A stretch of 64,000 bases of DNA from Acidimicrobiia bacterium (GTDB lineage Bacteria > Actinomycetota > Acidimicrobiia > Spongiisociales > ZC4RG35). The position numbers and the translations under genes are program-made. Shown here piece by piece: positions 2,834 through 49,717 of the stretch. The notes under the pieces were generated by a model. It searched no databases and was not told the DNA's origin. It saw nothing but the letters and a program-made list of their open reading frames with translations. The DNA is taken from positions 102,300-166,299 of the forward strand of contig DATDPP010000079.1 in the NCBI GenBank assembly GCA_035292685.1. The letters are read 5' to 3'. The stretch's first letter is position 1. Every line of letters starts with the position of its first letter.

Positions 2834-3086
2834 GAGGGGCATAGTGCCCGACCTCATGGGGCGGGTCGAGGAAGAGGTCGATGGGGCCCAGGCACCCGTC
2901 ACGAGTCTGAGGTTTCGAGTGGGGGCGTTGTCCGGGATCCACCCCGAATCGCTGAGGGAAGACGCCGTTCGCTACGCCTTGGAGAAGTGGGGTTATTCGC
3001 CAAACGTGGAAGTCGAACAGTCGGTGGATCCCACCGACCCCAATGCACTCGGCGTGCTCCTAGTCTCGATCGGGCTCGAGAGCTGA
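2826..3086 (+). CDS. hypA: HypA-like nickel metallochaperone lacking the zinc-finger domain
   Basis: A GTG start gives an M-H-E N-terminus (the HypA Ni-binding motif). The HypA-like core reads LRFRVGALSGIHPESL. The protein is only 86 aa and has no CxxC...CxxC pair. Confidence 0.6.
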   Translation: MHERGIVPDLMGRVEEEVDGAQAPVTSLRFRVGALSGIHPESLREDAVRYALEKWGYSPNVEVEQSVDPTDPNALGVLLVSIGLES

Positions 3087-15402: not shown

Positions 15403-15418
15403 TTGGGACATTCGACCC
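15403..15418. promoter_or_regulatory. candidate operator: imperfect palindrome TTGGGAC-ATTC-GACCC in the divergent usp/hsp20 intergenic region
   Basis: A GGGAC-N4-G.CCC core resembles the DosR/DevR-type box (TTSGGGACTWWAGTCCCSAA). I count 12 of 20 matches by eye. No cognate regulator is in the window. Confidence 0.25.
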
Positions 15419-15521
15419 TGGTCAATGGGTCTTCGAAGTCGGATCATCGTTCTAGAAACCCATGCTGGCTCGGGCCGCCTGCAGCAACAAAGGGTCAGGC
15501 TCGAGAAAGGAGGTGAACCAC

Positions 15522-15956
15522 ATGGAGCTCAAGGTGTGGACACCGTTCTTCGATCTCGACAAGGAGTGGCGGTTGTTTGATTTCCCCCGATTCATCGAGG
15601 GGCATGAGTTCGCATTTCGACCCTCGATCGATGTCGCCAGGCGGAACGGAGACATGCTTGTCATCGCCGAACTTCCGGGCATCGACCCGGAGAAGGACGT
15701 CGAAATCTCAATTGAAGGGGACTACCTCTTCATAAAGGGTGAGAAGTCGATGGAGATGGACATCTCCGAAGACAACCGGTACGTCCACGAGAGAACATAC
15801 GGGAAGTTCCTGCGTCGCATCCCGCTCCCGGCTGGAGTTGACCCCGATAACGTGACTGCCGACTATGACAATGGCGTCCTTACCGTCAAGGTGACCCTTC
15901 CAAGGGAGGGAACGACCCAGGTGCACAACATCCCCGTTGAGGTAAAGACATCCTGA
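15522..15956 (+). CDS. Hsp20/alpha-crystallin family small heat-shock protein
   Basis: ATG 15522 follows GAAAGGAGG. The alpha-crystallin core reads DMLVIAELPGIDPEKDVEISIEGDYLFIKGEK...GVLTVKV. Confidence 0.9.
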   Translation: MELKVWTPFFDLDKEWRLFDFPRFIEGHEFAFRPSIDVARRNGDMLVIAELPGIDPEKDVEISIEGDYLFIKGEKSMEMDISEDNRYVHERTYGKFLRRIPLPAGVDPDNVTADYDNGVLTVKVTLPREGTTQVHNIPVEVKTS

Positions 15957-16506: not shown

Positions 16507-18960
16507 ATGAGTCCAGCCACCATTATCCGGTACATACGTTGGTTTGAGGAATTGGGGGTGGGAGATGTGGCCGAGGTCGGAGGCAAGAATGCTTCCCTTG
16601 GCGAGTTGTATTGCGCCCTGACGCCGCTCGGGGTGAATGTCCCCAACGGCTTCGCGGTCACCGCCCAGGCATACCGTGACACCCTCTCCGCCTCGGGGGC
16701 CTGGCCGAAGCTGGAAGAGATCATCGGCGGGGTCGACAAGTCAAACGTCGATGACCTTGCCCGGAGAGCGCGAAAAGCCCGTGAGCTGATCTACGAGTCT
16801 TCGCTGCCCGACTCGATCCGCGAGCAGATCGTCGACGCCTATCAGCGCCTGGTCGAGGAGTATGGCCCGGACCTGAGCGTTGCGGTGCGGTCGTCCGCCA
16901 CGGCGGAAGACCTTCCGACAGCAAGCTTTGCCGGGCAACACGAGACCTATCTCAACATCCATGGGGCGGAGCGTGTGGTCGAGGCTTGCCGCCGGTGCTT
17001 TGCCTCGTTGTTCACCGATCGTGCCATCTCGTATCGGATCGACCAGGGTTTCGACCACTTCTCGATAGGCCTGTCGGTGGGTGTCATGAAGATGGTCCGC
17101 TCCGACCTGGCCAGCAGCGGCGTGCTGTTCACAGTCGACACCGAGTCAGGGTTCGAGGACGTGGTCTTCATCACCGGCGCCTACGGGCTGGGTGAGAACG
17201 TGGTCCAAGGGGTGGTGGACCCCGATGAGTTCTACGTGCACAAGCCCACCTTCGAGCTCGGCTACCGAAGTGTGCTCAAGCGCAGCCTCGGGAACAAGCA
17301 GATCAAGATGGTCTATTCCCAGGGTCGGGGCGGCCAAACCACATCCAACATTCCCACCCCGGACATCGACCGGGAGACGTTCTGCCTGACGGATGACGAG
17401 GTCCTGACACTGGCCGGATTCGGGATCGAGGTCGAGCGTCACTACAGCGCTCAGGCTGGCCGGTCGATGCCGATGGACATCGAGTGGGCCAAAGACGGGA
17501 TCGATGACCTCCTCTACCTGGTGCAGGCCAGGCCGGAGACGGTTGTCTCGCAAAAGAAGAAGACGAGTCTCATCGAGCATCGGGTCCAGCAAGGCGGAAA
17601 GATCCTGGCCGAAGGCCGTGCGGTGGGCACGTCAGCTGCAGCCGGGGCGGTCCGTGTGGTGAAGGCTACGACCGGGCTGGCCGCCTTCCGCCCCGGCGAG
17701 GTTCTCGTTGCGGATACCACCACTCCCGATTGGGAGCCGGTGATGAAGACCGCAGCAGCCATCGTCACCAATCGTGGCGGACGGACCTGTCATGCCGCGA
17801 TCGTCGCCCGGGAGCTAGGCATTCCCGCGGTAGTTGGCGCGGCCGATGCCACCGAACGGCTCGGCACAGGGCAGGAGGTCACCGTCTCCTGCGCCGACGG
17901 GGAGGTAGGCCGGGTCTACGCCGGGCTCCTCCCGATCGAAATCGTGGAGGTCGACCTCACCGAGGTGGCCAGGACCAAGACCGAGATCATGGTCAATATC
18001 GGGAACCCGGACCTGGCCTTCCAGATTGCGCGGCTCCCGGTTGACGGTGTTGGCCTGGCCCGCATGGAGTTCATCATCTCCGAGTCGATCAGGGCCCATC
18101 CGATGGCACTGCTCGACCCGGATGGCGTGGAGGACCCGGCCGAGCGCCAGAGCATCCTCGATTTGATCAGCGGCTACGAGAACGGGTCCGAGTACTTCGT
18201 CGAGCGGCTCTCGGAAGGAGTGGCCACGATCGCAGCGGCTTTCTACCCGAGACCGGTCATCGTCCGTATGTCCGACTTCAAGACCAACGAGTACGCGAGC
18301 TTGCTCGGAGGCCGCGGCTTCGAGCCTGTCGAGGCCAATCCGATGATCGGGTTCCGCGGAGCCTCCCGCTATGCCCATCCCGCCTACGCCGCCGGGTTCG
18401 CCCTGGAGTGCGATGCGATGAAGCGGGCACGTGACGTCATTGGGATGACCAACATCAAGCTGATGATCCCCTTCTGCCGGAGGGTGGAGGAAGGACAGCG
18501 GGTCCTCGAGGTCATGGCGTCGCATGGGCTTCGGCGCGGTGAGAACGGCCTGGAGGTCTACGTGATGTGTGAGATCCCGAACAACGTCGTACAGGTAGAC
18601 GCCTTTGCCCGGATCTTCGACGGCTTCTCGATCGGTTCCAACGACCTCACCCAATTGGTGCTCGGCGTGGACCGGGACTCGGAGCTGGTGGCGTTCGATT
18701 TCGATGAGCGCGACGACGGGGTCATGGAGACGATTCGGCTGGCGGTGGACGGGGCGCATCGCCACGGCCGGCATATCGGGATCTGCGGCCAGGCGCCCTC
18801 CGATTTCCCGGACGTGGCCCGTCGCCTGGTGGAGATGGGGATCGATTCGATCAGCCTCAACCCGGACACAGTCGTGTCCACCATCGCGATCGTGAGCGAG
18901 GCGGAGGCAGGGGCAGCAGCCGGGCTGAAAGCAGTGCCTGAGGTCACTGTCCGCGGGTAG
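16507..18960 (+). CDS. ppsA: phosphoenolpyruvate synthase (pyruvate, water dikinase)
   Basis: 817 aa. N-terminus IRWFEELGVGDVAEVGGKNASLGE, phosphohistidine region GGRTCHAAIVARELGIPAVVG, and a C-terminal PEP-utilising TIM domain. Confidence 0.92.
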   Translation: MSPATIIRYIRWFEELGVGDVAEVGGKNASLGELYCALTPLGVNVPNGFAVTAQAYRDTLSASGAWPKLEEIIGGVDKSNVDDLARRARKARELIYESSLPDSIREQIVDAYQRLVEEYGPDLSVAVRSSATAEDLPTASFAGQHETYLNIHGAERVVEACRRCFASLFTDRAISYRIDQGFDHFSIGLSVGVMKMVRSDLASSGVLFTVDTESGFEDVVFITGAYGLGENVVQGVVDPDEFYVHKPTFELGYRSVLKRSLGNKQIKMVYSQGRGGQTTSNIPTPDIDRETFCLTDDEVLTLAGFGIEVERHYSAQAGRSMPMDIEWAKDGIDDLLYLVQARPETVVSQKKKTSLIEHRVQQGGKILAEGRAVGTSAAAGAVRVVKATTGLAAFRPGEVLVADTTTPDWEPVMKTAAAIVTNRGGRTCHAAIVARELGIPAVVGAADATERLGTGQEVTVSCADGEVGRVYAGLLPIEIVEVDLTEVARTKTEIMVNIGNPDLAFQIARLPVDGVGLARMEFIISESIRAHPMALLDPDGVEDPAERQSILDLISGYENGSEYFVERLSEGVATIAAAFYPRPVIVRMSDFKTNEYASLLGGRGFEPVEANPMIGFRGASRYAHPAYAAGFALECDAMKRARDVIGMTNIKLMIPFCRRVEEGQRVLEVMASHGLRRGENGLEVYVMCEIPNNVVQVDAFARIFDGFSIGSNDLTQLVLGVDRDSELVAFDFDERDDGVMETIRLAVDGAHRHGRHIGICGQAPSDFPDVARRLVEMGIDSISLNPDTVVSTIAIVSEAEAGAAAGLKAVPEVTVRG

Positions 18961-19002
18961 CGGGTCTTGCCAGGCGGCCGGATCATCCGGCGGTTCCGAG
19001 GT

Positions 19003-20208
19003 TCAGGTCGGCGGCAAGAGCAAGGTCACCCCAAACAGGCCGACGTCGTCTCCACCTCGATCCCAACCCCCTCTGATCGTGGCGCGGCAGCTGGCGAAAC
19101 CGGTCTGTTCGATGCTGTCGGCAATCCGATCATCGAAGCGCAGCTCGCCTTCACCGAGAAACCCGACCTGGAAGTCATCGATCCACACCTCCACGCCCTC
19201 ACCCTCTATGGGAACCAGATCCGCCACAGTCTCGACCTCCACACCACCAAACCGGCGTCGCCCTCCGGTCAATCGAAGAAGCTCGTCCTGGTGGAAGGAC
19301 TCTCCGACGACCGCCACCGCCTCTTCTCCTTCGAGAGTGACCATCTGCCGGTGACCCACGTGACCCCGCATCCGGCTGCGGGCAGTACTTGGGCTTGGGA
19401 TGCCGAGATGGCGCAGAAGACGCCTGCTGCCTCCCCCCATCCGGCAGGCGAAGCAATACCAGCGACAACCGACGGCGTCGATGTGCAGAGACGGATGATG
19501 ATCGTCGTGGAACGGACACAGGTAATAGGAGTCACCTGGAGCCACATCGACTCCGGCCCGCAGCCACAGGTCGCGGAATTCCTCCTGTTCGAGTGCGGTG
19601 CGGGCCAGCCGCTCGGCCTGCGCGTGCTGCCCGCCACCCGGGCCCACGGCGATTCGGCTCACCCACTCAGGCAGGGGAGCCGGTTCCTGCACGGGCTCGA
19701 GCCAGCGGTACGTCTCTCCGGAGTAGTGCCGGCTGGGTGGGGCGACGATCAACCCTCTCTCCGCCTTGAGCTCCAACCCGGCCCCCAACTCGACTGAAGG
19801 AATGTCCTCCTGTTCGATGGTGAACCAGATATGCCGTCCACCGCCACCGGTGCGACTCTCCAGGGTCAGGGGCAGCGGACCCGAGATGGCCTCCAGCTCG
19901 TCGAGGGTGGCGTCTCCTTCGTGGCGCGGGTCCACGTCGATGACCGCCACCCCGGAGACAGCCCCGGTCGCAACACCGACGTTGGCATCCGGCCAGCGCT
20001 CCCACCATTGCCCGACCTGGTCGGCTCCCGGCGCCGTGGTCATCGCCTCTTCCCATTTGACCCGAGGATGCTTCCCCGGTGACGGGCAATCAACTCGCCG
20101 ACAGCTGCATCCGTTTCGACGCATGGAGTGCATCGGGATCACCGACCAGCCACGCCGGAAATAGGATATTGCGGATTCGGCGTTGGGCGGTCGTGGTTGG
20201 GTGGTCAT
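19003..20208 (-). CDS. bifunctional primase-polymerase (AEP/Prim-Pol) fused to a CHC2 zinc finger and a HIRAN-like C-terminal domain
   Basis: Prim-Pol motifs VAVIDVDPRHEG, GGGGRHIWF and IVAPPSRH. CHC2 finger CPFHDDHHPSLHIDAVGCRWYCFACRMGG. The C-terminal VAVVGESFHQDELLRL...VGFL pattern is HIRAN-like. Confidence 0.8.
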   Translation of the reverse strand: MTTQPRPPNAESAISYFRRGWSVIPMHSMRRNGCSCRRVDCPSPGKHPRVKWEEAMTTAPGADQVGQWWERWPDANVGVATGAVSGVAVIDVDPRHEGDATLDELEAISGPLPLTLESRTGGGGRHIWFTIEQEDIPSVELGAGLELKAERGLIVAPPSRHYSGETYRWLEPVQEPAPLPEWVSRIAVGPGGGQHAQAERLARTALEQEEFRDLWLRAGVDVAPGDSYYLCPFHDDHHPSLHIDAVGCRWYCFACRMGGGSRRLLRHLGIPSPSTARSRMRGHVGHRQMVTLEGEEAVAVVGESFHQDELLRLTGGRRRFGGVEVETVADLVPIEGEGVEVWIDDFQVGFLGEGELRFDDRIADSIEQTGFASCRATIRGGWDRGGDDVGLFGVTLLLPPT

Positions 20209-20226
20209 GCGCCCGCCCCTCGGCCC

Positions 20227-21369
20227 TCACCAAGTTGGAAAGCGAAGCGTGGCGGCGACCAGATCATGGGCGAGGCTGGTTGGGGCGAAGACGTGCTCAA
20301 CCGATCCGCCGGCGTCGACCACCGACCGGGAAATCGTCTCGAGTAGCTCGGGAACGCCTACCGCCTCACCTCCACATCCGGTACAAACCGTGACAGCCAG
20401 GGAAAGCGCCCCACAGTTGTTGCACAGTGATCCTCCGAGTGACGCCCCGTCATGCACGAGAAGGCGGGACACCGCATGCCGGTTCACTGCCCTCAACACC
20501 CACTCGATGCCGACGACGGCCAGGTCTCCTTCGGCGGCAGCCGCATATGTCTGCTCGACCTCACCAGCCTCCTCCCTACGTTCGAAGGCCTCTTCGAGCT
20601 CAGCTACCTTCGCGGCGAGAATGGCCGGCGTGAGCGTGTTCATGTCGATCACGAACGTCTCCGTCATCGCCCGCACCGTCTTGTCGAGGAATGGAAGCAG
20701 TGCCCGTGTGATCTCGTCCTGGCCTCCCACGAGGACCAGGTCGAGACCGGTATCCCGGCGCAGACGGTTGAGGTGCTCGGCGACCTCCCGGAACAGGTGG
20801 TTGCGGGCCTCTTCGGCATGCTGTCGATGCCGTCGCTCCTCCAACCCGTGCCAGCCGGCCAGATCGGACTTCCTCAATTCCTCGCCCTCGATGAGCTCTC
20901 TATCGACGCCCTCGCCCATGTAGAAGGTGGCGATTTCGGCGTCCCGGCCGTCCAGAACCACTGCGGCCACCTTTCGGTACTCGTCGAGCAAGGCCTGGAG
21001 CGGACGCAGATACGGCTGTGGCCCGGCAACGGCGCAGTCCCACACCCTTCTGGGCATGGTCATGTGTTCCTCGAGCCGGAGCCGGTCACAGACAAACACT
21101 GCCACCCCGTGGCCCAGTTCCTTCACGAACTCGGGTGTCATCTCGAGCACCCGGTTGACGCCGTTGCGAAGCGACATCGACGACTCGTGATCCAGGTCAC
21201 CCGAGGCGGCAAGCTTCTCGATCGGGTCGAGCAGATCACGGAGGCGGGCGCCGATCGAACGCCTCTCGATTCGGTCCGGCGCCAGGTTGAGATACACGGA
21301 CAGAATCGGAAGCGATGGGCTCTCGACGAGCCGCAACCGATCCATCGCCTCCTGCAACTGATAGGCCAC
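20227..21369 (-). CDS. bacterial archaeo-eukaryotic release factor-like protein (eRF1/Pelota fold, baeRF1 family) with a zinc-ribbon insert
   Basis: KSDLAGWHGLEERRHRQHAEEARNHLFREVAE aligns by eye to the eRF1 GGQ region ([28 protein letters not shown]). LVLVGGQDE central-domain pattern. C-terminal CNNCG...CTGCGG ribbon. Confidence 0.7.
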   Translation of the reverse strand: MAYQLQEAMDRLRLVESPSLPILSVYLNLAPDRIERRSIGARLRDLLDPIEKLAASGDLDHESSMSLRNGVNRVLEMTPEFVKELGHGVAVFVCDRLRLEEHMTMPRRVWDCAVAGPQPYLRPLQALLDEYRKVAAVVLDGRDAEIATFYMGEGVDRELIEGEELRKSDLAGWHGLEERRHRQHAEEARNHLFREVAEHLNRLRRDTGLDLVLVGGQDEITRALLPFLDKTVRAMTETFVIDMNTLTPAILAAKVAELEEAFERREEAGEVEQTYAAAAEGDLAVVGIEWVLRAVNRHAVSRLLVHDGASLGGSLCNNCGALSLAVTVCTGCGGEAVGVPELLETISRSVVDAGGSVEHVFAPTSLAHDLVAATLRFPTW

Positions 21370-21551
21370 TTCCTACCTTCCTTCGTGGCGAACGGAAGAG
21401 GCTCCACCATGAACGTAAGGCGATCCGGGGGCCTCGGGAAGGGCCGTTGGTCACTACTTGAATGACTCGGGTTGGCTGATCCGACTCTCCGACGATGGGT
21501 AGCCTGCCCGCGCTAGGGAGGGCGTCCGGACAGGAATCAGAGGAGCCCCAG

Positions 21552-26593: not shown

Positions 26594-26854
26594 TTATCGG
26601 GACCGCTCTTTGGCCAGGTTCACGGTGAGCTGACGCCCTCCCATGTCCTTACCGTTCAACGAGGAGATCGCGTTCTGCGCTTCCTCGGCGGAATCCATTT
26701 CGACGAACCCGAAGCCGCGGGACCGGCCGGTGTCGCGGTCATTGATGACCTGCGCCTTGGTCACACGACCGTGGGGCGCGAACAGCGACTCCAATTCCGC
26801 GGAGTCGGTGGAGAACGAGAGGTTCCCCACATAGAGGTTGGTGGACATTGACAT
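26594..26854 (-). CDS. RRM-type RNA-binding protein
   Basis: RNP2 LYVGNL and RNP1 RGFGFVEM motifs; 86 aa. Confidence 0.9.
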   Translation of the reverse strand: MSMSTNLYVGNLSFSTDSAELESLFAPHGRVTKAQVINDRDTGRSRGFGFVEMDSAEEAQNAISSLNGKDMGGRQLTVNLAKERSR

Positions 26855-28583: not shown

Positions 28584-28740
28584 GAATCTGAACCCACGGC
28601 AACCCTAGCTACCACCCCGATTGAAGGGTTCACCCTGAAGGGGTGACAAAAGACTCGTGATTGTTTCACCGAGGACCCTTTTGTCGAACCGTCGGGAATC
28701 GTTAACTTCGGGTTACTCAGCCACAAGGAGCCAACCCGCT

Positions 28741-31362
28741 TTGCCCCATCTCTTCGACTTCTCGGCCACTGATGGTTCCGACGCGGACCTGCTGGGAGGC
28801 AAAGGCGCCGGGTTGGCGCGAATGACCTCGCTCGGCCTTCCGGTGCCTCCAGGCTTCACTATCACCACCGAGGTCTGTCGGCTGACGATGAGGGACGGCC
28901 GCGTTCCCGAGAACCTGTGGGAAGAGGTCGACTCGGCAATCGCTCGTCTCGAGACCAGGACCGGGCGCACCTTCGGCGGGGGCCCGGTTCCGATCCTGCT
29001 CTCGGTGAGATCGGGCGCCAGGGCCTCGATGCCCGGAATGATGGACACCATCCTCAACCTGGGGCTCAACGACGAAGTGGTCAAGAACTTGATCGAGTGG
29101 TCAGGAGATCCACATTTCGCCTGGGACGCCTATCGCCGATTCGTGCAGATGTACGGCGACGTGGTCCTCGGTGTGGAACCGAGCCTGTTTCAGGAAGTTC
29201 TCGTCGAGCTCCGGAACGCGGCTGGAGTCGATGACGACACAGAGCTCGACACCGACGAACTCGAGACGGCTACTCGGAGCTTCCAGGAGATCGTCGAGGA
29301 GCTTCGACCCGGCGGGCTCCCCAGCGACCCCTATGAGCAGTTGCGGGGTGCGATCACCGCGGTCTTCAGCTCATGGAACACCAAGCGTGCCGTCGACTAC
29401 CGGAGGATCTACTCGATCCCCGACGACCTGGGCACGGCCGCCAATGTGCAGATGATGGTCTTTGGTGACCTCGGTGACGACTCGGGGACCGGTGTCTGCT
29501 TCACCCGGGATCCCGGAACCGGAGCTCACCTCATATACGGCGACTATCTCCCCCGGGCCCAAGGTGAGGATGTCGTGGCCGGCACCCGCAACCCTTTGAC
29601 GCTCGATCAGCTCGGAAAGCTCCACCCGGAATGTCACCACCAGTTGCTCGAGATCATGAGCGGTCTGGAAGCCCATTACCGCGACATGTGTGACATCGAG
29701 TTCACCATCGAGCGCAAGGTCCTGTACATCCTCCAGACCCGGGCCGGGAAACGAACCGCGGCCGCCGCAGTCAAGATGGCCGTGGCCATGGTGGACGAGG
29801 GTCTCATCGACCGCGCCACGGCGGTGAGGCGGGTCGCCCCCGCCTCCCTCGAGCAACTGCACCGCCCCCGGATCGCCGACCACGTGAAGCTCTCCGGCGC
29901 CGCCGTCATCGGTATCGCCGCCTCCCCGGGGGCCGCCATCGGCAAAGTTGTGTTCTCGTCCGACGCTGCCGTGGCCCAGGCAAGGGAAGGCGAAGCAGTG
30001 ATCCTCGTCCGCCCTGAGACGACACCCAACGACATTCACGGCATGGCGGCCGCGGTCGGGATCCTGACCAGTCAGGGCGGGAAGACCTCGCACGCCGCGG
30101 TGGTGGCCAGGGGCATGGGCAAGCCGGCAGTGACCGGGGCTGCGGACCTGAGCGTGGACGCCGGGGCCGGTTTGGCCCGAACGGTCGCCGATGAGATCCG
30201 GGTCGGTGACCTGGTGACGATCGACGGTTCCACCGGGGCGGTGTTCATCGGCAGCGTCGATGTCGTCGCCCCAGAGTCCCTACCCGAATTGCGCCGGCTG
30301 CTGGAGTGGGCCGATGAGATCAGGGCCCTGGGGGTGTGGGCCAACGCTGACAACGCCGAGGATGCGGCCATTGCCAGAAGCCTCGGCGCAGAAGGAATCG
30401 GCCTGGCGCGGACCGAGCACATGTTTCTCGGCGAGAGACTCCAAGTGGTGCAGCGAATCATCCTCTCCGAGGTCGAAGAGGAGCGCTCCTTCGCGCTGAT
30501 GGAATTGGAGCGTGTCCAGATCGGTGATTTCGAAGGCCTGCTCGAGGCGATGGATGGCCTGCCGGTGGTGATCAGGCTCCTCGACCCTCCGCTTCACGAA
30601 TTCCTGCCCTCTCGTTTCGAGTTGGAGCACGAGATGCGGCTCGACGCCAAGGAGGGCCTTCCCATCGACGACCTGCAGTCGATGTCCGAGCAGGTTGCCA
30701 GGTGGGAGGAGGACAACCCGATGCTCGGTTTGCGCGGCGTTCGGCTCGGCCTGATGGTCGACCACCTCTACCGGATGCAAGCTCGGGCCGCCTGTCATGC
30801 CCTGGTCAGGAGACTCCAGGCCGGGGGCCATCCCATACTCGAGATCATGATCCCTCTCGTTGCTGACGTGGAGGAGTTGATCCGCATGCGGGAGATGATC
30901 GAAGAGGAGGTCAAAGACGCAGCAGACCAGTCGGGGCTCCGACTGGAGGTTCCGGTGGGGACGATGATCGAGCTGCCTCGTGCCGCCCTGACCGCGGGGG
31001 CCATCGCTAAGGTCGCCGACTTTTTCTCGTTTGGAACCAATGACCTCACCCAGATGACGTACGGGCTGAGTAGGGACGACGCGGAAGCGCTGTTCCTCCG
31101 TGAATACCTGGAGCGGGGAATCCTGCCCTCGAACCCCTTTCAGACCCTCGACCGCGCCGGTGTTGGCCGCTTGGTTCGGGTGGCAGCCAAAGAGGGCAGG
31201 GAGGCAAACCCCGGGCTGACCCTCGGTCTCTGCGGCGAGCACGGAGGGGACCCCAAGTCGATTGCCTTCGTCCACGAGCTAGGACTCGACTACGTCTCGT
31301 GCAGCCCGCCCCGAATCGAGGGGGCACGGCTGGCCGCGGCCCAGGCCGCGCTGGCCGATTAA
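28741..31362 (+). CDS. ppdK: pyruvate, phosphate dikinase
   Basis: LLGGKGAGLARMTSLGLPVPPGFTITTE, phosphohistidine GGKTSHAAVVARGMGKPAV, and a C-terminal PEP-utilising domain. TTG 28741 lies 10 nt after AAGGAG; the longer ORF starts at GTG 28657. Confidence 0.9.
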   Translation: MPHLFDFSATDGSDADLLGGKGAGLARMTSLGLPVPPGFTITTEVCRLTMRDGRVPENLWEEVDSAIARLETRTGRTFGGGPVPILLSVRSGARASMPGMMDTILNLGLNDEVVKNLIEWSGDPHFAWDAYRRFVQMYGDVVLGVEPSLFQEVLVELRNAAGVDDDTELDTDELETATRSFQEIVEELRPGGLPSDPYEQLRGAITAVFSSWNTKRAVDYRRIYSIPDDLGTAANVQMMVFGDLGDDSGTGVCFTRDPGTGAHLIYGDYLPRAQGEDVVAGTRNPLTLDQLGKLHPECHHQLLEIMSGLEAHYRDMCDIEFTIERKVLYILQTRAGKRTAAAAVKMAVAMVDEGLIDRATAVRRVAPASLEQLHRPRIADHVKLSGAAVIGIAASPGAAIGKVVFSSDAAVAQAREGEAVILVRPETTPNDIHGMAAAVGILTSQGGKTSHAAVVARGMGKPAVTGAADLSVDAGAGLARTVADEIRVGDLVTIDGSTGAVFIGSVDVVAPESLPELRRLLEWADEIRALGVWANADNAEDAAIARSLGAEGIGLARTEHMFLGERLQVVQRIILSEVEEERSFALMELERVQIGDFEGLLEAMDGLPVVIRLLDPPLHEFLPSRFELEHEMRLDAKEGLPIDDLQSMSEQVARWEEDNPMLGLRGVRLGLMVDHLYRMQARAACHALVRRLQAGGHPILEIMIPLVADVEELIRMREMIEEEVKDAADQSGLRLEVPVGTMIELPRAALTAGAIAKVADFFSFGTNDLTQMTYGLSRDDAEALFLREYLERGILPSNPFQTLDRAGVGRLVRVAAKEGREANPGLTLGLCGEHGGDPKSIAFVHELGLDYVSCSPPRIEGARLAAAQAALAD

Positions 31363-32084
31363 CGCCCCACAAGCTTCTCGATCGCATCGACCAGGGCACC
31401 TACGCCCTCACCGGTGAGGGCGGTGGTGGTCAACACCTCGGACCCCGACTCTCCGGCGGCGCCCAGCAGGGCGTGTCGCACCTCGTCGACGCCCGGCCGA
31501 TCGGCCTTGTTGACCACGAATAGGTCGGCGATCTCGATCACCCCGGCCTTCTCGGCCTGGATCTGGTCACCCCACCCTGGTCCCACGACCAACACCACCA
31601 CCTCGACCAGGTTCATCACCTCGATCTCGGACTGACCCACACCCACCGTCTCCACGAGCACAAAGTCGAATCCGGCATTGGAAAGGATGTCGATAGTCGA
31701 CCCTGCCGCCGCCGCCAGCCCACCAAGATGCCCGCGGGTGGCCATGGAGCGGATATAGACCCCATCGTCCTCGACATGACCTTGCATTCGGATCCGGTCC
31801 CCGAGCAGTGCCCCGCCGGTGAGCGGGCTGGAAGGATCCACCGCTAGCACCGCAACGGAGAGAGAACGCGACCTCAGTTCGGTGATGATCGCGCTGATCA
31901 GCGTGGACTTTCCGGCCCCGGGGGGACCGGTGACCCCGATGCGCCTCGCTGATTGCCCTTCTCGACTCAGGGTGCCCACAGCCTCGACGACGTCGGGCTC
32001 ACCCGATTCGATCGCCGTCACCAGGCGAGCCAGAGCGGCCCGATCACCGGTACGAACGAGATCGATCAGCTCGCTCGAGCTCAT
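31359..32084 (-). CDS. MeaB/ArgK-like G3E-family GTPase, short form
   Basis: GVTGPPGAGKSTL P-loop, VAVLAVDPSSPLTGGALLGDRIRM, NKADR. At 241 aa it lacks the usual C-terminal extension. Confidence 0.8.
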   Translation of the reverse strand: MSSSELIDLVRTGDRAALARLVTAIESGEPDVVEAVGTLSREGQSARRIGVTGPPGAGKSTLISAIITELRSRSLSVAVLAVDPSSPLTGGALLGDRIRMQGHVEDDGVYIRSMATRGHLGGLAAAAGSTIDILSNAGFDFVLVETVGVGQSEIEVMNLVEVVVLVVGPGWGDQIQAEKAGVIEIADLFVVNKADRPGVDEVRHALLGAAGESGSEVLTTTALTGEGVGALVDAIEKLVGR

Positions 32085-35533: not shown

Positions 35534-35606
35534 CAGTCCCGACCGGATTCGAACCGGCGTTTCCGGCTTGAAAGGCCGGCGTCCTGGGCCTCTGGACGAC
35601 GGGACC
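35534..35606 (-). tRNA. tRNA-Glu (anticodon TTC)
   Basis: Manual cloverleaf: GGTCCCG/TC/GTCC-AGAGGCCCA-GGAC/G/CCGGC-CTTTCAA-GCCGG/AAAC/GCCGG-TTCGAAT-CCGGT/CGGGACT/G. CCA is not encoded. It lies directly downstream of gltX. Confidence 0.9.
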
Positions 35607-38059: not shown

Positions 38060-38587
38060 CTAGCCGAGGGAGCCCGACTCCCCCGGTGGTCGGTCTTTAT
38101 GGGTCAGGGCCCAGCGCACCTGCTCCGGCTTGTTGAGCATCAGGGTCCGGTCCACCTCGGAGACCGCGGTCTCACCGGGCCGGGTTTCGTGGGGCACCGC
38201 CGCCTTCCAGCGCTCCTTCTGGGCAACCAACTCCGGGGTGCCCTCGAATCCGTAGCCACACAGGACCAGGGCAACCTCCAGATCCTCCTTGATCGGGGCC
38301 CGGCCCAGGGCGGCGGCGCGCGCCGTCATCAGCCCTGCAAGCACGCCGCGAAGGTTGGGGTCGTCGTCGGGAAGGTCGGAAATCGACAGCAGGTGGAGTG
38401 CCCACCCCGCATCAGGGCCGGCGGTGCCAAAACGCCCGCCCCGGGGCACCTGTTCGGGCGAGGTGATCACCCCGGGTCTGGACGGTCCCCCAACCCGGGC
38501 GGGTGGTGTCTCGAGCACCTTTCTCGGTCTTTCGGCCTCGGTGATCTCTAGATTCGGCTGCTGACCCATCAGGTGAAGGTGAGCCAT
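38060..38587 (-). CDS. hypothetical protein
   Basis: 175-aa ORF co-directional with ilvE and overlapping its 3' end. I recognise no family. An alternative start lies at 38569. Confidence 0.5.
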   Translation of the reverse strand: MAHLHLMGQQPNLEITEAERPRKVLETPPARVGGPSRPGVITSPEQVPRGGRFGTAGPDAGWALHLLSISDLPDDDPNLRGVLAGLMTARAAALGRAPIKEDLEVALVLCGYGFEGTPELVAQKERWKAAVPHETRPGETAVSEVDRTLMLNKPEQVRWALTHKDRPPGESGSLG

Positions 38588-39483
38588 TCCCGGTAGTCCG
38601 AGAGCTTGCCGGCCACGGCGTCCGAGAACAGATCCTGGGCCTTTCGGGTCACCGGTCCCGGCCCACCGGTGCCCACCACACGCCTGTCGATCTCGCGCAC
38701 CGGGGTCACTTCGGCCGCAGTGCCGGTGAGGAAGATCTCATCGGCCGTGTAGAGACTCCCCCGGGCAAGGTCTAGCTCCCGGACTTCGACACCTTCGGCC
38801 CGGAGCAATCGGATGACAGAGTCCCTGGTGATTCCTTCGAGAATCCCCGACGAGGCCGGCGGTGTTGAGACGACGCCTCCGCTCACCATGAACAGGTTCA
38901 TGCCGCTGCCCTCGGAGAGCGATCCTGAGTCGTTGAGCATGATCGCCTCGTCGAAACCGGCGGAGACCGCCTCCTGCTTGGCCAGGACCGAGTTCAGATA
39001 CTGTCCGCTCCCTTTGGCCGACGGAATGAAACTGCTGTGCGAGATGCGACGCCAGCTGGACACCATGGTGGTGATGCCCTTCTGAACCCCATCCTCACCC
39101 ATGTAACTGCCGAGGTAGAAGGCCGCCATGTAAGTGAGGACCGGGCTCGACGCCGGGTCGATCCCAAATGCGCCAGCCCCGTAGAAAGAGAGCGGGCGGA
39201 TGTAAGCCGATTCGAGCCCGTTGACCCGGAGTAGCTCGAGACACGCCTCGTCCAGCTGATCCACCGTCCAGGGCATCGGGATCCCGTAGGCGCGAGCGGA
39301 GGCGTTGAGGCGGAGCATGTGCTCATGAAGCCGGAATACGGCCGTTCCCTCTGGGGTCTTGTAGGCGCGGATGCCCTCGAAGACACCCGTCCCGTATTGA
39401 AGTCCGTGAGCGAGGAAATGAACGGTGGCATCGTCCCAATCGACGAACTCGCCGTCCACCCATATCTTGGATGACGGTTCCAT
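38569..39483 (-). CDS. ilvE: branched-chain amino acid aminotransferase (fold type IV)
   Basis: IWVDGEFVDWDDATVHFLAHGLQYGTGVFEGIRAY... The ATG at 39483 was chosen inside the 494-aa ORF, whose N-terminal 190 aa are low-complexity. Confidence 0.9.
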   Translation of the reverse strand: MEPSSKIWVDGEFVDWDDATVHFLAHGLQYGTGVFEGIRAYKTPEGTAVFRLHEHMLRLNASARAYGIPMPWTVDQLDEACLELLRVNGLESAYIRPLSFYGAGAFGIDPASSPVLTYMAAFYLGSYMGEDGVQKGITTMVSSWRRISHSSFIPSAKGSGQYLNSVLAKQEAVSAGFDEAIMLNDSGSLSEGSGMNLFMVSGGVVSTPPASSGILEGITRDSVIRLLRAEGVEVRELDLARGSLYTADEIFLTGTAAEVTPVREIDRRVVGTGGPGPVTRKAQDLFSDAVAGKLSDYREWLTFT

Positions 39484-39543
39484 CGCCAAGAGGCTAACTG
39501 CTGGTTCGGGAAGTGAAATCGTCAGTGGGTTGAACCCCCCTTT

Positions 39544-39594
39544 CGTAATTGGGATGCACAGGTCCGCATATGACCCCTGAGGGTCCCAATTACG
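39544..39594. repeat. 51-bp palindromic element, copy 2 (core inverted relative to copy 1)
   Basis: CGTAATTGGGA-TGCACAGGTCCGCATATGACCCCTGAGGG-TCCCAATTACG. Its reverse complement matches copy 1 at 46 of 51 positions. It sits in the divergent ilvE/pgpA intergenic region. Confidence 0.7.
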
Positions 39595-39618
39595 GGTCTC
39601 GGATAGTCTCGGCCCCCA

Positions 39619-40074
39619 ATGCACCGATTGGTCGCTTCGTTCTTCGGCTCCGGACTGCTGTTGCGGCGGATCAGAGGATCGGACGCAGGCTCGGGGACGG
39701 TCGGAGCTCTCGTTGCCCTCCTCTTCTCGTTGTGGGCGGGCTCGAGTCTTGGATGGCAGGCTCAGCTGGTCGGGGTGGTGGTGCTCTCCGTGGCTGCTCT
39801 GTGGTCGACACGACCCCTGGTCGCCGAGGTGGGAGATGCCGGCTGGATCGTGATCGATGAGGCCGCCGGCACCTTCGTCGCCACGATCGGCCTGCTCGGT
39901 TGGCCGGCGGTCGTCGCATTCGGCGTGTTTCGAATCGCCGACATCACCAAGAGCAGACTCACCGGAGTCGTCCAGGCGGAGTCGCTCCCTGAACCTTTCG
40001 GCATCGTCGCCGACGATCTGGTGGCCGGTCTCTACGGTTTGGCCGCGGGTCAACTGGTCAGGATCTTTCTCTAG
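39619..40074 (+). CDS. pgpA: phosphatidylglycerophosphatase A
   Basis: FFGSGLL...GSGTVGALVA...IDEAAG...FRIADITK pattern; 151-aa membrane protein. Confidence 0.8.
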   Translation: MHRLVASFFGSGLLLRRIRGSDAGSGTVGALVALLFSLWAGSSLGWQAQLVGVVVLSVAALWSTRPLVAEVGDAGWIVIDEAAGTFVATIGLLGWPAVVAFGVFRIADITKSRLTGVVQAESLPEPFGIVADDLVAGLYGLAAGQLVRIFL

Positions 40075-48851: not shown

Positions 48852-49562
48852 ATGGGGTGGTTCTGCACCTTGGACGAGTGCAATCGAGATGGGTATGCGC
48901 GTGGCCTATGCGAAATGCACTACCGGCGGGTTCGGAAGACGCGAGATCCGGGACCACCAGGACCGTTGGCTCGATCAAGATCCATCTGCAAGGCACCGGA
49001 GTGCGACCATGAACTGGACGCCAAAGGCTATTGCCACGGCCACTATCTGCGCCTCCTACGCACCGGTGCAGTGAGCGAAGAGCCACTGCGGGTCAGAGGG
49101 AGACTGTGCTCGGTTGAAGATTGCATCGAGGCCCACAAGGCCAAGGGCATGTGCGCTGCCCACTACAAGCGCTTCCTCAAATACGGCGACCCCCAACCTG
49201 ATCGTCCGATCAGACGGAGCGACGGCAACGGACACATCAGCCATGGGTATCGAAACGTCCCGGTCTCCTCTCCCCTGCGACGTTTGGTTGGAGGCGCCAC
49301 CAAGGTAGGCGAACATCGGCTGGTGATGGCTATTCATCTCGGCCGTCCGCTCCTGCCCGACGAGGTAGTCCATCATCGCAACGGAAATCGTATCGACAAC
49401 CGCATCGAGAACCTCGAGTTGTGGTCGACTGCTCACCCGAAAGGGCAACGGGTAGTAGACCTAATCGCCTTCTCCGTCGAGATGCTCCACCGATACACAC
49501 CCGAGATCGGTTCATCGATAGTGAGGATGTCAGTGCAAGCTGGCAGTCCCGACCAGATTTGA
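48852..49562 (+). CDS. HNH endonuclease (HNH_3-like) with three N-terminal Cys/His-rich repeats
   Basis: [41 protein letters not shown] core. Three repeats of C-x2-C...G(L/Y/M)C..HY.R. ATG 48852 lies inside ORF 47859..49562. The 3' end runs 22 nt into tRNA-Glu. Confidence 0.8.
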
Positions 49563-49616
49563 ACTGGCGTTTCCGGCTTGAGAGGCCGGCGTCCTTGACC
49601 CCTAGACGACGGGACC
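49541..49616 (-). tRNA. tRNA-Glu (anticodon CTC), CCA encoded
   Basis: Manual fold: GGTCCCG/TC/GTCT-AGGGGTCA-AGGAC.../CCGGC-CTCTCAA-GCCGG/.../GCCAG-TTCAAAT-CTGGT/CGGGACT/GCCA. Confidence 0.9.
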
Positions 49617-49645
49617 AGATTCGGCCCACTCACGTTGGACCGTTG

Positions 49646-49717
49646 CTCGGGGGGAAGGACTCGAACCCTCAATAACAGGGCCAGAACCTGTCGTGTTACC
49701 TATTACACCACCCCCGA
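49646..49717 (-). tRNA. tRNA-Gln (anticodon CTG)
   Basis: Manual fold: TCGGGGG/TG/GTGT-AATAGGTA-ACAC/G/ACAGG-TTCTGGC-CCTGT/TATT/GAGGG-TTCGAGT-CCTTC/CCCCCGA/G. The U1-A72 pair is typical of tRNA-Gln. Confidence 0.9.

What the first reader, a model, noticed from the sequence alone, without database searches (positions are those of the whole stretch)
19003..21369. Two-gene operon coupling an eRF1/Pelota-like (baeRF1) protein to a PrimPol-zinc finger-HIRAN-like enzyme
Both genes are on the minus strand, separated by 18 nt, so they are probably co-transcribed. One protein has the fold used for translation termination and ribosome rescue. The other is a DNA primase-polymerase. I know of no characterised system that pairs them. 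No integrase, helicase, relaxase or phage gene is nearby, so this is not simply a plasmid or prophage replication module. The pair could be a stress/dormancy module or an uncharacterised conflict (defence) system linking stalled translation to DNA priming.
Basis: partly seen in the sequence, partly recalled or inferred. Interest (0 to 1): 0.72.

Follow-up and report, generated by a model that had tools for sequence, protein, structure and literature searches.

The report
Ribosome hibernation gene with primase-polymerase passenger
An uncultured actinobacterium (class Acidimicrobiia) co-transcribes a Balon-type ribosome "sleep" factor with a DNA primase-polymerase; the pairing is real and inherited in one lineage but often lost, so it looks like shared stress regulation and not a new two-protein machine or a defence system.

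Summary
Two minus-strand genes lie 18 nt apart (20227-21369 and 19003-20208), with no terminator or promoter-sized gap between them.

Gene 1 is an aeRF1-fold protein whose closest solved relatives are the Balon ribosome hibernation factors Msmeg1130 and Rv2629 (Foldseek TM 0.72). The catalytic GGQ is replaced by an invariant AGW, and there is no NIKS motif.

Gene 2 is a chromosomal Prim-Pol + CHC2 zinc finger + divergent HIRAN enzyme with intact catalytic residues.

The pairing is not chance, but it is facultative:
- All primase-polymerases found next to this factor form one clade within Acidimicrobiia.
- That clade shows two gene orders: factor→PrimPol as here, or YbaK-like–RtcA–PrimPol–factor–HPF.
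- PrimPol has been deleted or has decayed in several sister lineages, while the factor and its promoter persist.
- None of 79 other PrimPol loci carries the factor.

A conserved DosR-box-like element (GTGACCAACGGCCC) precedes the factor, HPF and Hsp20 genes.

Best reading: a dormancy or stress transcription unit in which PrimPol is a co-regulated accessory DNA repair or repriming enzyme. The defence-system reading is not supported. The tight RtcA–PrimPol coupling in the sister clade is the most interesting lead.

The parts
20227..21369 (-). Balon-type (aeRF1-fold, baeRF family 10) putative ribosome hibernation factor, 380 aa. GGQ position is A171-G172-W173. C4 zinc ribbon at C316, C319, C329, C332.
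   Evidence: Pfam. NCBIfam Rv2629/MSMEG_1130 hibernation-factor models are the best hits but fall below cutoff. PDB profile search: 8v9j_z Balon E=4e-11, 8v9k_z 3e-9. AF2 model pLDDT 88. Foldseek best hit 8v9l_z, TM 0.72. Invariant residues.
19003..20208 (-). PrimPol-CHC2 zinc finger-HIRAN-like enzyme, 401 aa, second gene of the unit
   Evidence: Pfam. Alignment A2 invariants D91, D93, H126, K148. AF2 pLDDT 86. Foldseek: pRN1 ORF904 prim-pol 1rni E=3e-9, NrS-1, CAPP, and DnaG Zn domain 1d0q.
19663..20172 (-). Prim-Pol (archaeo-eukaryotic primase fold) catalytic domain, residues 13-182, including a CxCx4C..KH knuckle (C34, C36, C41, H47)
   Evidence: PF09250 covers the full profile 1-158. Invariant columns. 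Structure match.
19414..19524 (-). DnaG-type CHC2 zinc finger, residues 229-265 (C231, H234, C252, C255)
   Evidence: PF01807 above cutoff. 1d0q E=8e-7. Foldseek 1d0q probability 1.0.
19015..19323 (-). Divergent, shortened HIRAN-like C-terminal domain, residues about 296-398, with an invariant RGGWDRG motif
   Evidence: No Pfam hit in the query. PF08797 hits 9 of 31 aligned homologs. Family profile against HLTF HIRAN 4xzg E=0.0087. The domain is alignable throughout A2.
20209..20226 (-). 18-nt spacer with Shine-Dalgarno-like GAGGGG; no room for a promoter or terminator
   Evidence: Sequence. Scan. Orthologous spacers are 12 nt (L010) and 13 nt (L009).
21441..21454 (-). Conserved box GTGACCAACGGCCC (family pattern G[G/T]GAC-N4-G[G/A]CCC, followed by TTCC), 72-85 nt upstream of the factor's start codon. 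Putative activator site resembling the core of the DosR box.
   Evidence: Present at the same position upstream of the factor gene in 14 distinct loci, within otherwise diverged intergenic DNA. DosR consensus TTSGGGACTWWAGTCCCSAA is quoted in PMC2275270. Its function is inferred.
21412..21417 (-). -10-like hexamer TACGTT, 23 nt downstream of the box. Orthologs have TACGGT, TACGAT, TACCGT or TAAGGT.
   Evidence: Aligned upstream regions. The promoter role is inferred. The sigma-70 consensus scan found nothing.
15405..15418 (+). Same type of box (GGGACATTCGACCC) upstream of the Hsp20 gene (15462..15956 +), in the USP/Hsp20 divergent region
   Evidence: A single site, so weak on its own.

Best explanation
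This is a stress or dormancy transcription unit, not a dedicated two-protein machine.

Gene 1 encodes a Balon-type hibernation factor. By homology it would occupy the ribosomal A site without hydrolysing peptidyl-tRNA, because the GGQ glutamine is replaced by tryptophan, as in Rv2629. Occupying the A site would silence and protect ribosomes in non-growing cells.

Gene 1 is driven by its own conserved promoter, which carries a DosR-box-like palindrome centred near -42 of the inferred start site. The same box precedes HPF and Hsp20 genes in this lineage.

Gene 2 is a chromosomal primase-polymerase. It carries a DnaG-type template-reading zinc finger and a HIRAN-like module, which by homology binds 3' ends. 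In the window's lineage it sits 18 nt behind gene 1, so it is expressed from the same promoter.

Its most likely job is priming, gap filling or 3'-end extension on DNA in non-growing or reawakening cells. It would be an accessory genome-maintenance function co-regulated with ribosome hibernation.

Shown here: gene structure, folds, motif states, conservation and loss pattern, and the promoter footprint. Inferred: ribosome binding, DosR-type regulation, the PrimPol substrate, and the absence of physical interaction between the two proteins.
For: Factor identity:
- Best sequence and structure matches are Balon Msmeg1130 and Rv2629.
- AGW aligns with GGQ of aRF1 and with AGW of Rv2629.
- Balon homologs bind the A site and inhibit translation about 15-fold. 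They typically neighbour RaiA/HPF, Hsp20 and RtcB (PMC10901736). The HPF association of baeRF-1 proteins is also reported in PMC6514570.

Context:
- USP, Hsp20 and DUF1918 lie within 6 kb of the pair.
- Relatives carry tRNA_edit-RtcA-PrimPol-factor-HPF.

Promoter footprint.

PrimPol:
- Catalytic D91, D93 and H126 are invariant.
- The fold matches pRN1, NrS-1 and CAPP primase-polymerases.
- HIRAN binds 3'-OH DNA ends, and actinobacterial Prim-Pols act in DNA repair (PMC8136793).

Adjacency is inherited, not random:
- PrimPols adjacent to the factor form one clade, mirrored in the factor tree.
- Two gene orders exist. A simple inversion cannot interconvert them.

Adjacency is dispensable:
- Deletion scar in L014.
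- PrimPol pseudogene in L005/L006.
- PrimPol is replaced by other genes in the syntenic loci L110 and L007.
- L113 keeps the factor while RtcA and HPF decay.
Against: - No expression data are available, so the promoter and regulator are inferred.
- No DosR-like regulator was found in the window.
- The box is not enriched window-wide: 5 matches against 2.8 expected.
- In the sister clade the box lies downstream of PrimPol, so PrimPol there is not under it. Co-regulation is therefore not uniform across lineages.
- A DNA role for PrimPol is assumed from its family. Its tightest partner in clade A is an RNA-end enzyme (RtcA, 2-nt gap).
- Outside this clade the PrimPol family shows no stress context.
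Confidence: 0.5

Rival explanations
1. Coupled nucleic-acid end-repair pathway. PrimPol-HIRAN works with RtcA, and alongside the Balon-like factor and HPF, on damaged nucleic-acid 3' ends during translational shutdown. The substrate could be rRNA or tRNA, or DNA breaks bearing 3'-phosphates. PrimPol would extend or re-synthesise from ends that RtcA has processed, while hibernation factors hold the ribosome.
For: - In clade A, PrimPol starts 2 nt after the RtcA stop codon (L103, L106).
- It stays with tRNA_edit-RtcA even where the factor is absent (L107).
- The cluster is otherwise made only of RNA or translation genes: a YbaK-like deacylase, RtcA, the factor and HPF.
- Adjacency to the factor survived a change of gene order.
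- HIRAN is an end-binding module.
Against: - In the window lineage there is no RtcA, tRNA_edit or HPF anywhere in the 64 kb.
- PrimPol is lost while RtcA, the factor and HPF stay (L014, L111).
- No Prim-Pol is mentioned among Balon or baeRF-1 neighbours in PMC10901736 or PMC6514570.
- I know of no precedent for an RNA-repair role of a Prim-Pol enzyme.
Confidence: 0.2
2. Neutral neighbourhood. PrimPol is an unrelated gene that landed beside the factor in an ancestor and has been carried along. The slot is simply a variable region, and read-through co-transcription has no functional meaning.
For: - Only 7 of about 25 distinct factor lineages keep an intact adjacent PrimPol.
- None of 79 other PrimPol loci has the factor.
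- The slot between the factor and PpsA holds other genes in syntenic relatives: a GH65 glycoside hydrolase, a trehalose-phosphatase-like hydrolase and an M50-CBS peptidase.
- All adjacent cases trace back to a single origin.
Against: - Adjacency persists down to about 58% protein identity.
- It persists through a gene-order change that needs more than an inversion.
- Spacers are very short on both sides: 2 nt to RtcA, and 12-18 nt to the factor.
- Every clade member with visible flanks sits next to RtcA or the factor.
- Catalytic residues stay invariant.
Confidence: 0.22
3. Uncharacterised conflict or defence system that senses stalled translation and triggers DNA priming or synthesis.
For: - Prim-Pol domains do occur in conflict systems such as CRISPR-associated CAPP (a Foldseek hit).
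- The zinc finger resembles a PADLOC DRT-associated model.
- Burroughs and Aravind propose conflict-driven origins for some baeRF-1 proteins.
Against: - No PADLOC hit for the factor, and only a 40-residue Zn-finger hit for PrimPol.
- Neighbours are housekeeping and stress genes, with no defence-island or mobile-element context.
- Inheritance looks vertical, and GC content is unremarkable.
- No phage or plasmid record carries the full architecture.
- The factor lacks the catalytic glutamine.
Confidence: 0.05

Closest known systems
Balon ribosome hibernation factors (P. urativorans Balon; mycobacterial Rv2629 and Msmeg1130; PMC10901736)
   Same: - Three-domain aeRF1 fold, with best structural matches at TM 0.63-0.72.
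- Best PDB sequence hits.
- No GGQ or NIKS. It shares the AGW motif with Rv2629.
- Relatives sit next to HPF, Hsp20 and an Rtc RNA-repair gene.
- A DosR-box-like element recalls the hypoxia induction of Rv2629.
   Different: - Only 18-19% identical to the solved Balons.
- Scores far below the NCBIfam equivalog cutoffs: 67 against 320, and 42 against 480.
- Retains an intact C4 zinc ribbon in the C-terminal domain.
- The Rtc partner is RtcA, not RtcB.
- A primase-polymerase neighbour is not reported for Balon genes.
baeRF-1 family 10 (Burroughs and Aravind 2019, PMC6514570; Pfam PF18854)
   Same: Passes the Pfam gathering threshold. The HPF association described for baeRF-1 proteins is seen in relatives.
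   Different: The paper suggests family 10 keeps a conserved glutamine and may be catalytic. Here the GGQ-aligned position is an invariant tryptophan. The paper's main text does not mention a primase or Prim-Pol association.
Prim-Pol enzymes of the archaeo-eukaryotic primase superfamily (pRN1 ORF904, phage NrS-1, CAPP; mycobacterial LigD-Pol and Prim-PolC)
   Same: Catalytic fold and acidic/His motifs. Actinobacterial Prim-Pols are known chromosomal DNA-repair enzymes.
   Different: - No helicase, ligase or Ku partner.
- Instead it is fused to a DnaG-type CHC2 finger and a HIRAN-like domain.
- No phage or plasmid record carries this full architecture.
- Most relatives share only the N-terminal domain, inside proteins of 600-900 aa.
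HIRAN domain (HLTF; PF08797)
   Same: The C-terminal domain is homologous at family level. The known role is 3'-OH DNA end binding.
   Different: The window's copy is shortened: the usual Pro/Asp-rich loop (PENPxDPNAV) is replaced by IEGEGVEV. It is not detected by Pfam on its own.
RtcA/RtcB RNA repair operons and PrfH-RtcB ribosome rescue modules
   Same: In the sister clade a release-factor-like protein lies next to an Rtc enzyme in a stress cluster.
   Different: - The enzyme is RtcA only. No RtcB, RtcR or sigma-54 elements were seen.
- The release-factor-like protein has the aeRF1 fold, not the bacterial PrfH type.
- None of this is present in the window itself.

Membership tests
Balon-type ribosome hibernation factor | aeRF1-like three-domain fold closest to ribosome-bound Balon structures | tested here: met
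   AF2 model pLDDT 88, pTM 0.75. Foldseek: 8v9l_z Msmeg1130 E=2.6e-21, TM 0.72; 8rdw_B TM 0.68; 8v9k_z Rv2629 TM 0.63. These exceed aRF1 and eRF1 at TM about 0.5.
Balon-type ribosome hibernation factor | Absence of the catalytic GGQ and of the NIKS stop-codon motif | tested here: met
   In the profile alignment to aRF1 4af1, GGQ aligns with A171-G172-W173. G172 and W173 are invariant in 32 homologs. Rv2629 also has AGW. No NIKS appears in the translated sequence.
Balon-type ribosome hibernation factor | Scores above the NCBIfam equivalog cutoffs for the Rv2629 or MSMEG_1130 families | tested here: not met
   67.3 bits against a cutoff of 320, and 42.5 against 480. It is therefore a distinct, distant subfamily, not an equivalog.
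Balon-type ribosome hibernation factor | Genomic association with HPF/RaiA, Hsp20 and Rtc repair genes | tested here: met
   HPF lies immediately downstream in L013, L014, L016, L103, L106 and L111. Hsp20 is adjacent in L023 and L103. The window has Hsp20 and USP within 6 kb but no HPF.
Balon-type ribosome hibernation factor | Binds the ribosomal A site (with EF-Tu) and inhibits translation | not testable with these tools
   Needs ribosome binding assays or cryo-EM, and an in-vitro translation assay.
baeRF-1 family 10 (PF18854) | Pfam gathering score | tested here: met
   72.9 bits against 27.1.
Prim-Pol (PF09250, archaeo-eukaryotic primase superfamily) | Domain model above threshold, plus the catalytic DxD and His motifs | tested here: met
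   139.4 bits against 22.8, covering the full profile. D91, D93 and H126 are invariant, and position 146 is always acidic. Foldseek 1rni E=3e-9.
Prim-Pol (PF09250, archaeo-eukaryotic primase superfamily) | Primase and/or polymerase activity | not testable with these tools
   Needs biochemistry.
DnaG-type CHC2 zinc finger (PF01807) | Model above threshold, with the four metal ligands present | tested here: met
   29.3 bits against 24.9. C231, H234, C252 and C255 are invariant. 1d0q matches.
HIRAN domain (PF08797) | Recognisable HIRAN domain in this protein | tested here: inconclusive
   No Pfam hit for the query at E<=1. 9 of 31 aligned homologs hit HIRAN, best 4e-8. Family profile against HLTF HIRAN 4xzg E=0.0087. 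The whole-model Foldseek search returned no HIRAN hit.
Known anti-phage defence systems (PADLOC-DB v2) | Any component model matching either protein over its core | tested here: not met
   The factor has no hits. PrimPol hits only through residues 228-268 (the Zn finger), to DRT-associated models.
Plasmid or phage replication primase module | Full-length relatives on plasmids or phages, with a helicase or integrase nearby | tested here: not met
   Only the N-terminal domain matches, at <=53% coverage and 30-40% identity. Neighbours are chromosomal housekeeping and stress genes.
DosR/DevR-type dormancy regulon | DosR-like palindromic box at an activator position upstream, and a cognate NarL-type regulator | tested here: inconclusive
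   The box G[G/T]GAC-N4-G[G/A]CCC is conserved upstream of the factor, HPF and Hsp20 genes. It matches the core and spacing of TTSGGGACTWWAGTCCCSAA (PMC2275270), but only one half-site is canonical. No regulator was found in the window. A Response_reg+GerE gene lies next to a distant homolog in L115.

The most novel reading that the evidence does not exclude
The PrimPol-zinc finger-HIRAN enzyme is a working partner of RtcA and the hibernation machinery. Together they would form an end-healing and extension pathway for damaged nucleic-acid 3' ends in dormant cells, acting on rRNA or tRNA, or on DNA with 3'-phosphate breaks. This would give a physiological role to RtcA and a first RNA- or translation-linked role to a bacterial primase-polymerase.
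Probability: 0.15. Interest if true: 0.75.

Novelty: new variant of a known kind. Interest (0 to 1): 0.45.

Why it matters
Balon-type factors were recognised only in 2024, and their partners are still being catalogued. This locus extends the family to Acidimicrobiia with a distinct subfamily that has AGW in place of GGQ and keeps its zinc ribbon. It also supplies a candidate regulatory box shared with HPF and Hsp20 genes.

The unexpected element is a catalytically intact primase-polymerase embedded in a cluster made otherwise only of translation and RNA-repair genes. It sits 2 nt behind RtcA in one clade and 12-18 nt behind the hibernation factor in another.

If the link is only regulatory, it says that genome maintenance by a Prim-Pol is part of the dormancy programme in these bacteria. 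If the link is mechanistic, it offers a handle on the long-unclear biological role of RtcA and on non-replicative functions of Prim-Pol enzymes.

Tried and rejected
- **Defence system.** The PADLOC scan was negative apart from a Zn-finger hit. Rejected.
- **Plasmid or prophage replication module.** tblastn against phage and plasmid collections matched only the N-terminal domain. Composition is unremarkable. Rejected.
- **Catalytic release factor.** Rejected because the glutamine is replaced by tryptophan.
- **General PrimPol-factor association.** 79 PrimPol loci from metagenomes contain no baeRF1, by tblastn or by HMM, and show no recurrent neighbour. They also lack RtcA, HPF and Hsp20. The link is clade-specific.
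- **Canonical DosR box.** GGGACN4GTCCC is not enriched in the window. The relaxed box is also not enriched window-wide. Only its positional conservation across orthologs is convincing.
- **DosR-like regulator in the window.** This is a weak test.
- **Structured RNA.** Rfam found nothing in the locus or in L103/L106.
- **Sigma-70 promoter and terminator scans.** Uninformative.
- **False lead.** P0092 and P0171 share a contig length of 3279, but the contig has no PrimPol.
- **Literature.** 'baeRF1' as a search term found no paper. The 2016 RNA-repair survey by Burroughs and Aravind was not in the searchable library.
Full report
**1. The observation**

The window has 64-65% GC with no compositional break at the locus.
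- 20227..21369, 380 aa, GTG start behind a GAAGGAAGGTAGG ribosome-binding site.
- 19003..20208, 401 aa, ATG start.

They are separated by 18 nt (20209-20226) containing GAGGGG. No terminator-like or promoter-like site lies between them.

Public gene calls for identical contigs start the second gene 55 codons later, giving 346 aa. That is wrong. The Prim-Pol Pfam profile begins at residue 13, and nine invariant residues lie upstream of the later start.

Neighbours:
- A Germane/Gmad2 lipoprotein, USP, Hsp20, DUF1918 and PpsA on one side, with PpsA convergent on the pair.
- An SDR (divergent), an O-methyltransferase and MenE/MenB/MenA-like genes on the other.

Source names attached to identical proteins place the window in an uncultured Acidimicrobiia bacterium.

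**2. Gene 1 is a Balon-type factor, not an orphan eRF1**

Sequence evidence:
- Pfam assigns baeRF_family10 at 72.9 bits against a cutoff of 27.1.
- The best NCBIfam hits are the 'Rv2629 family' and 'MSMEG_1130 family' ribosome hibernation factor models, but far below their equivalog cutoffs: 67 against 320, and 42 against 480.
- A profile of 32 homologs finds Balon Msmeg1130 (8v9j_z, E=4e-11, nearly full length) and Balon Rv2629 (3e-9) ahead of Pelota and aRF1.

Structure evidence:
- The AlphaFold model has pLDDT 88 and pTM 0.75.
- It superposes best on ribosome-bound Balon structures at TM 0.72, 0.68 and 0.63. eRF1 and aRF1 give about 0.5.

Motif evidence:
- In the profile alignment to aRF1, GGQ aligns with A171-G172-W173.
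- G172 and W173 are invariant in the family, and Rv2629 also has AGW at this position.
- There is no NIKS motif.
- A C4 zinc ribbon (C316, C319, C329, C332) is invariant.

What is known about Balon homologs: they bind the A site, lack NIKS and GGQ, and inhibit translation. Their genes usually neighbour RaiA/HPF, Hsp20 and RtcB (PMC10901736). The HPF link of baeRF-1 proteins was noted in 2019 (PMC6514570). Neither paper's text mentions a primase.

**3. Gene 2 is a chromosomal PrimPol-zinc finger-HIRAN enzyme**

- The Prim-Pol domain covers residues 13-182 (E=1.8e-40). The CHC2 finger covers residues 229-265 and scores above cutoff.
- D91, D93, H126 and K148 are invariant, position 146 is always acidic, and the four zinc ligands are invariant.
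- The model (pLDDT 86) matches pRN1 ORF904 (E=3e-9), NrS-1 and CAPP primase-polymerases, and the DnaG zinc-binding domain.
- HIRAN is not detected in the query by Pfam. However, the C-terminal domain aligns throughout the family, 9 of 31 members hit PF08797 (best 4e-8), and the family profile reaches HLTF HIRAN at E=0.009. I treat it as a shortened HIRAN-like domain.
- No phage or plasmid record carries the full architecture. Only the N-terminal domain matches, at 30-40% identity.
- In 1.84 billion representative proteins, most strong hits share only residues ~10-190, inside proteins of 600-900 aa.

**4. Is the pairing conserved?**

*Factor-centred view.* I examined about 25 distinct lineages: a scan of one genome per species plus contig look-ups.

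- An intact adjacent PrimPol is present in 7 lineages: the window, L009, L010, L013, L016, L103 and L106.
- In the window's clade (B) the order is factor→PrimPol, with spacers of 18, 12 and 13 nt.
- In the sister clade (A) the order is YbaK-like tRNA_edit → RtcA → PrimPol → factor → HPF.
- In clade A, PrimPol starts 2 nt after the RtcA stop. About 70 nt separate PrimPol from the factor.

*PrimPol-centred view.*
- 79 metagenomic loci at 40-66% identity contain no baeRF1, by tblastn or by HMM.
- They show no recurrent neighbour and no RtcA, HPF or Hsp20.
- In a neighbour-joining tree, all factor-adjacent PrimPols form a single clade. Its two halves mirror clades A and B of the factor tree.
- The juxtaposition is therefore old: about 58% protein identity between the halves. 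It arose once and survived a change of gene order that a simple inversion cannot produce.

*Losses.*
- L014/L111 keep about 25 nt of the 5' end and about 110 nt of the 3' end of PrimPol between RtcA and the factor. This is a clean internal deletion.
- L005/L006 carry a frame-broken PrimPol remnant behind the factor.
- L110 and L007 share the window's synteny, with men genes on one side and PpsA on the other. In the PrimPol slot L110 has a GH65 glycoside hydrolase, a trehalose-phosphatase-like hydrolase and an M50-CBS peptidase; L007 has the M50-CBS peptidase.
- L113 has remnants of RtcA and HPF but an intact factor.
- L107 keeps tRNA_edit, a frameshifted RtcA and PrimPol, without the factor.

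The factor is the persistent gene. PrimPol, RtcA and HPF are facultative companions.

**5. A conserved promoter footprint**

About 72-90 nt upstream of the factor's start codon, 14 distinct loci carry G[G/T]GAC-N4-G[G/A]CCC followed by TTCC. A -10-like TACGTT, TACGGT or TACGAT follows 19-23 nt further on. The surrounding intergenic sequence is otherwise diverged.

In the window the box is GTGACCAACGGCCC at 21441-21454(-). The same box type precedes HPF in clade A (GGGACAAACGGCCC) and Hsp20 in the window (15405-15418).

Its core and spacing resemble the mycobacterial DosR box TTSGGGACTWWAGTCCCSAA (PMC2275270). Its inferred centre near -42 would suit an activator.

This remains a hypothesis, for four reasons:
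- The box is not enriched window-wide.
- No regulator was found in the window.
- Deeper factor clades lack the box.
- The only hint at a regulator is a NarL-type regulator gene beside a distant homolog (L115).

In clade A the box overlaps the PrimPol stop codon. There the factor has its own promoter, and PrimPol belongs to the upstream tRNA_edit-RtcA unit. Only in the window's clade is PrimPol placed under the box.

**6. Mechanism**

Best explanation (confidence 0.5): this is a dormancy or stress transcription unit.
- The Balon-like factor silences and protects ribosomes.
- PrimPol is a co-regulated accessory enzyme for priming, gap filling or end extension on DNA in non-growing or reawakening cells.
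- This is consistent with the repair roles of actinobacterial Prim-Pols and with the 3'-end binding of HIRAN (PMC8136793).

Rivals:
- A real RtcA/PrimPol end-repair pathway tied to hibernating ribosomes (0.2). Support: the 2-nt RtcA-PrimPol coupling and the otherwise purely RNA and translation make-up of the cluster. Against: the window lacks RtcA and HPF, and PrimPol is lost while its partners stay.
- A neutral inherited neighbourhood (0.22).
- A defence system (0.05). There is no PADLOC support, no island or mobile context, and inheritance looks vertical.

**7. Novelty and verdict**

The factor is a new, distant subfamily of a known family. The PrimPol-zinc finger-HIRAN family carries only a generic annotation and, as far as I could find, is uncharacterised.

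The association with a hibernation and RNA-repair cluster is not in the papers I could search. It is restricted to one Acidimicrobiia lineage and is dispensable.

Verdict: new variant of a known kind, interest 0.45. Its 'stress/dormancy module' reading is supported and sharpened. Its 'conflict system' reading is not supported.

Noticed in passing
L103:5245-5305; also L014 ~4215-4270, L016 ~3005-3060, L013/L106 and L107 upstream of tRNA_edit: A second, different conserved element (CATCACATGACTTTCTCCCCTGGTGTC...CCGGTAATGA) lies just upstream of the YbaK-like tRNA_edit gene that heads the tRNA_edit-RtcA-PrimPol unit in the sister clade. It has no Rfam match, and its spacing does not fit a sigma-70 promoter. 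Unexplained.
   Followed up: partly
window 19003-20208 (public calls on L001-L004: 9327-10367): Public gene calls truncate the PrimPol N-terminus (346 aa instead of 401). This drops invariant residues of the Prim-Pol domain and inflates the apparent gap to the factor from 18 to 183 nt.
   Followed up: yes
L014:5793-5925 and L111:2145-2337: A deletion scar lies between RtcA and the factor's promoter box. It retains the first ~25 nt and last ~110 nt of the PrimPol gene, which directly shows PrimPol loss by internal deletion.
   Followed up: yes
L113:4622-4852 and 6201-6360: A decaying cluster. Only residues 1-77 of RtcA and about 60 C-terminal residues of HPF remain around an intact factor gene, and the promoter box is mutated (GTGACCAATGCCTC).
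   Followed up: partly
L107:4128-5129: RtcA matches are split over several reading frames just upstream of an intact PrimPol. This is either a pseudogene or assembly frameshifts. No factor gene is present in this locus.
   Followed up: no
L115:6713-7381: A NarL/LuxR-type response regulator (Response_reg + GerE, the same family as DosR) lies 0.55 kb downstream of a 44%-identical factor homolog, on the opposite strand.
   Followed up: no
window 28657-31362 (+) and 16507-18960 (+): Two PEP synthase/PPDK-like paralogs lie about 10 kb apart and flank the region. PpsA is a frequent neighbour of the factor gene across relatives (L007, L010, L015, L020, L022, L107, L110).
   Followed up: partly
window 31923-31936 (+) and 38646-38659 (-): Two identical copies of GGGACCGGTGACCC match the box pattern but lie inside long ORFs (31359..32084 -, 38569..40053 -). 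Probably chance.
   Followed up: partly
window 18977-18991: A short hairpin (GCCGGA-TGA-TCCGGC) sits in the 42-nt convergent gap between PpsA and PrimPol, with no T-run. It could be a bidirectional terminator.
   Followed up: no
window 26594-26854 (-), 35534-35606, 49544-49717: An 86-aa RRM-type RNA-binding protein gene and three tRNA genes lie elsewhere in the window. None is close to the locus, and no integrase was noted next to the tRNAs.
   Followed up: no
protein search: The Prim-Pol domain is 45-55% identical to the N-termini of many 600-900-aa proteins. These look like primase-helicase fusions typical of mobile elements, but they were not annotated. This may mean the chromosomal enzyme arose by domestication, with the C-terminal part replaced by the zinc finger and HIRAN.
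   Followed up: no
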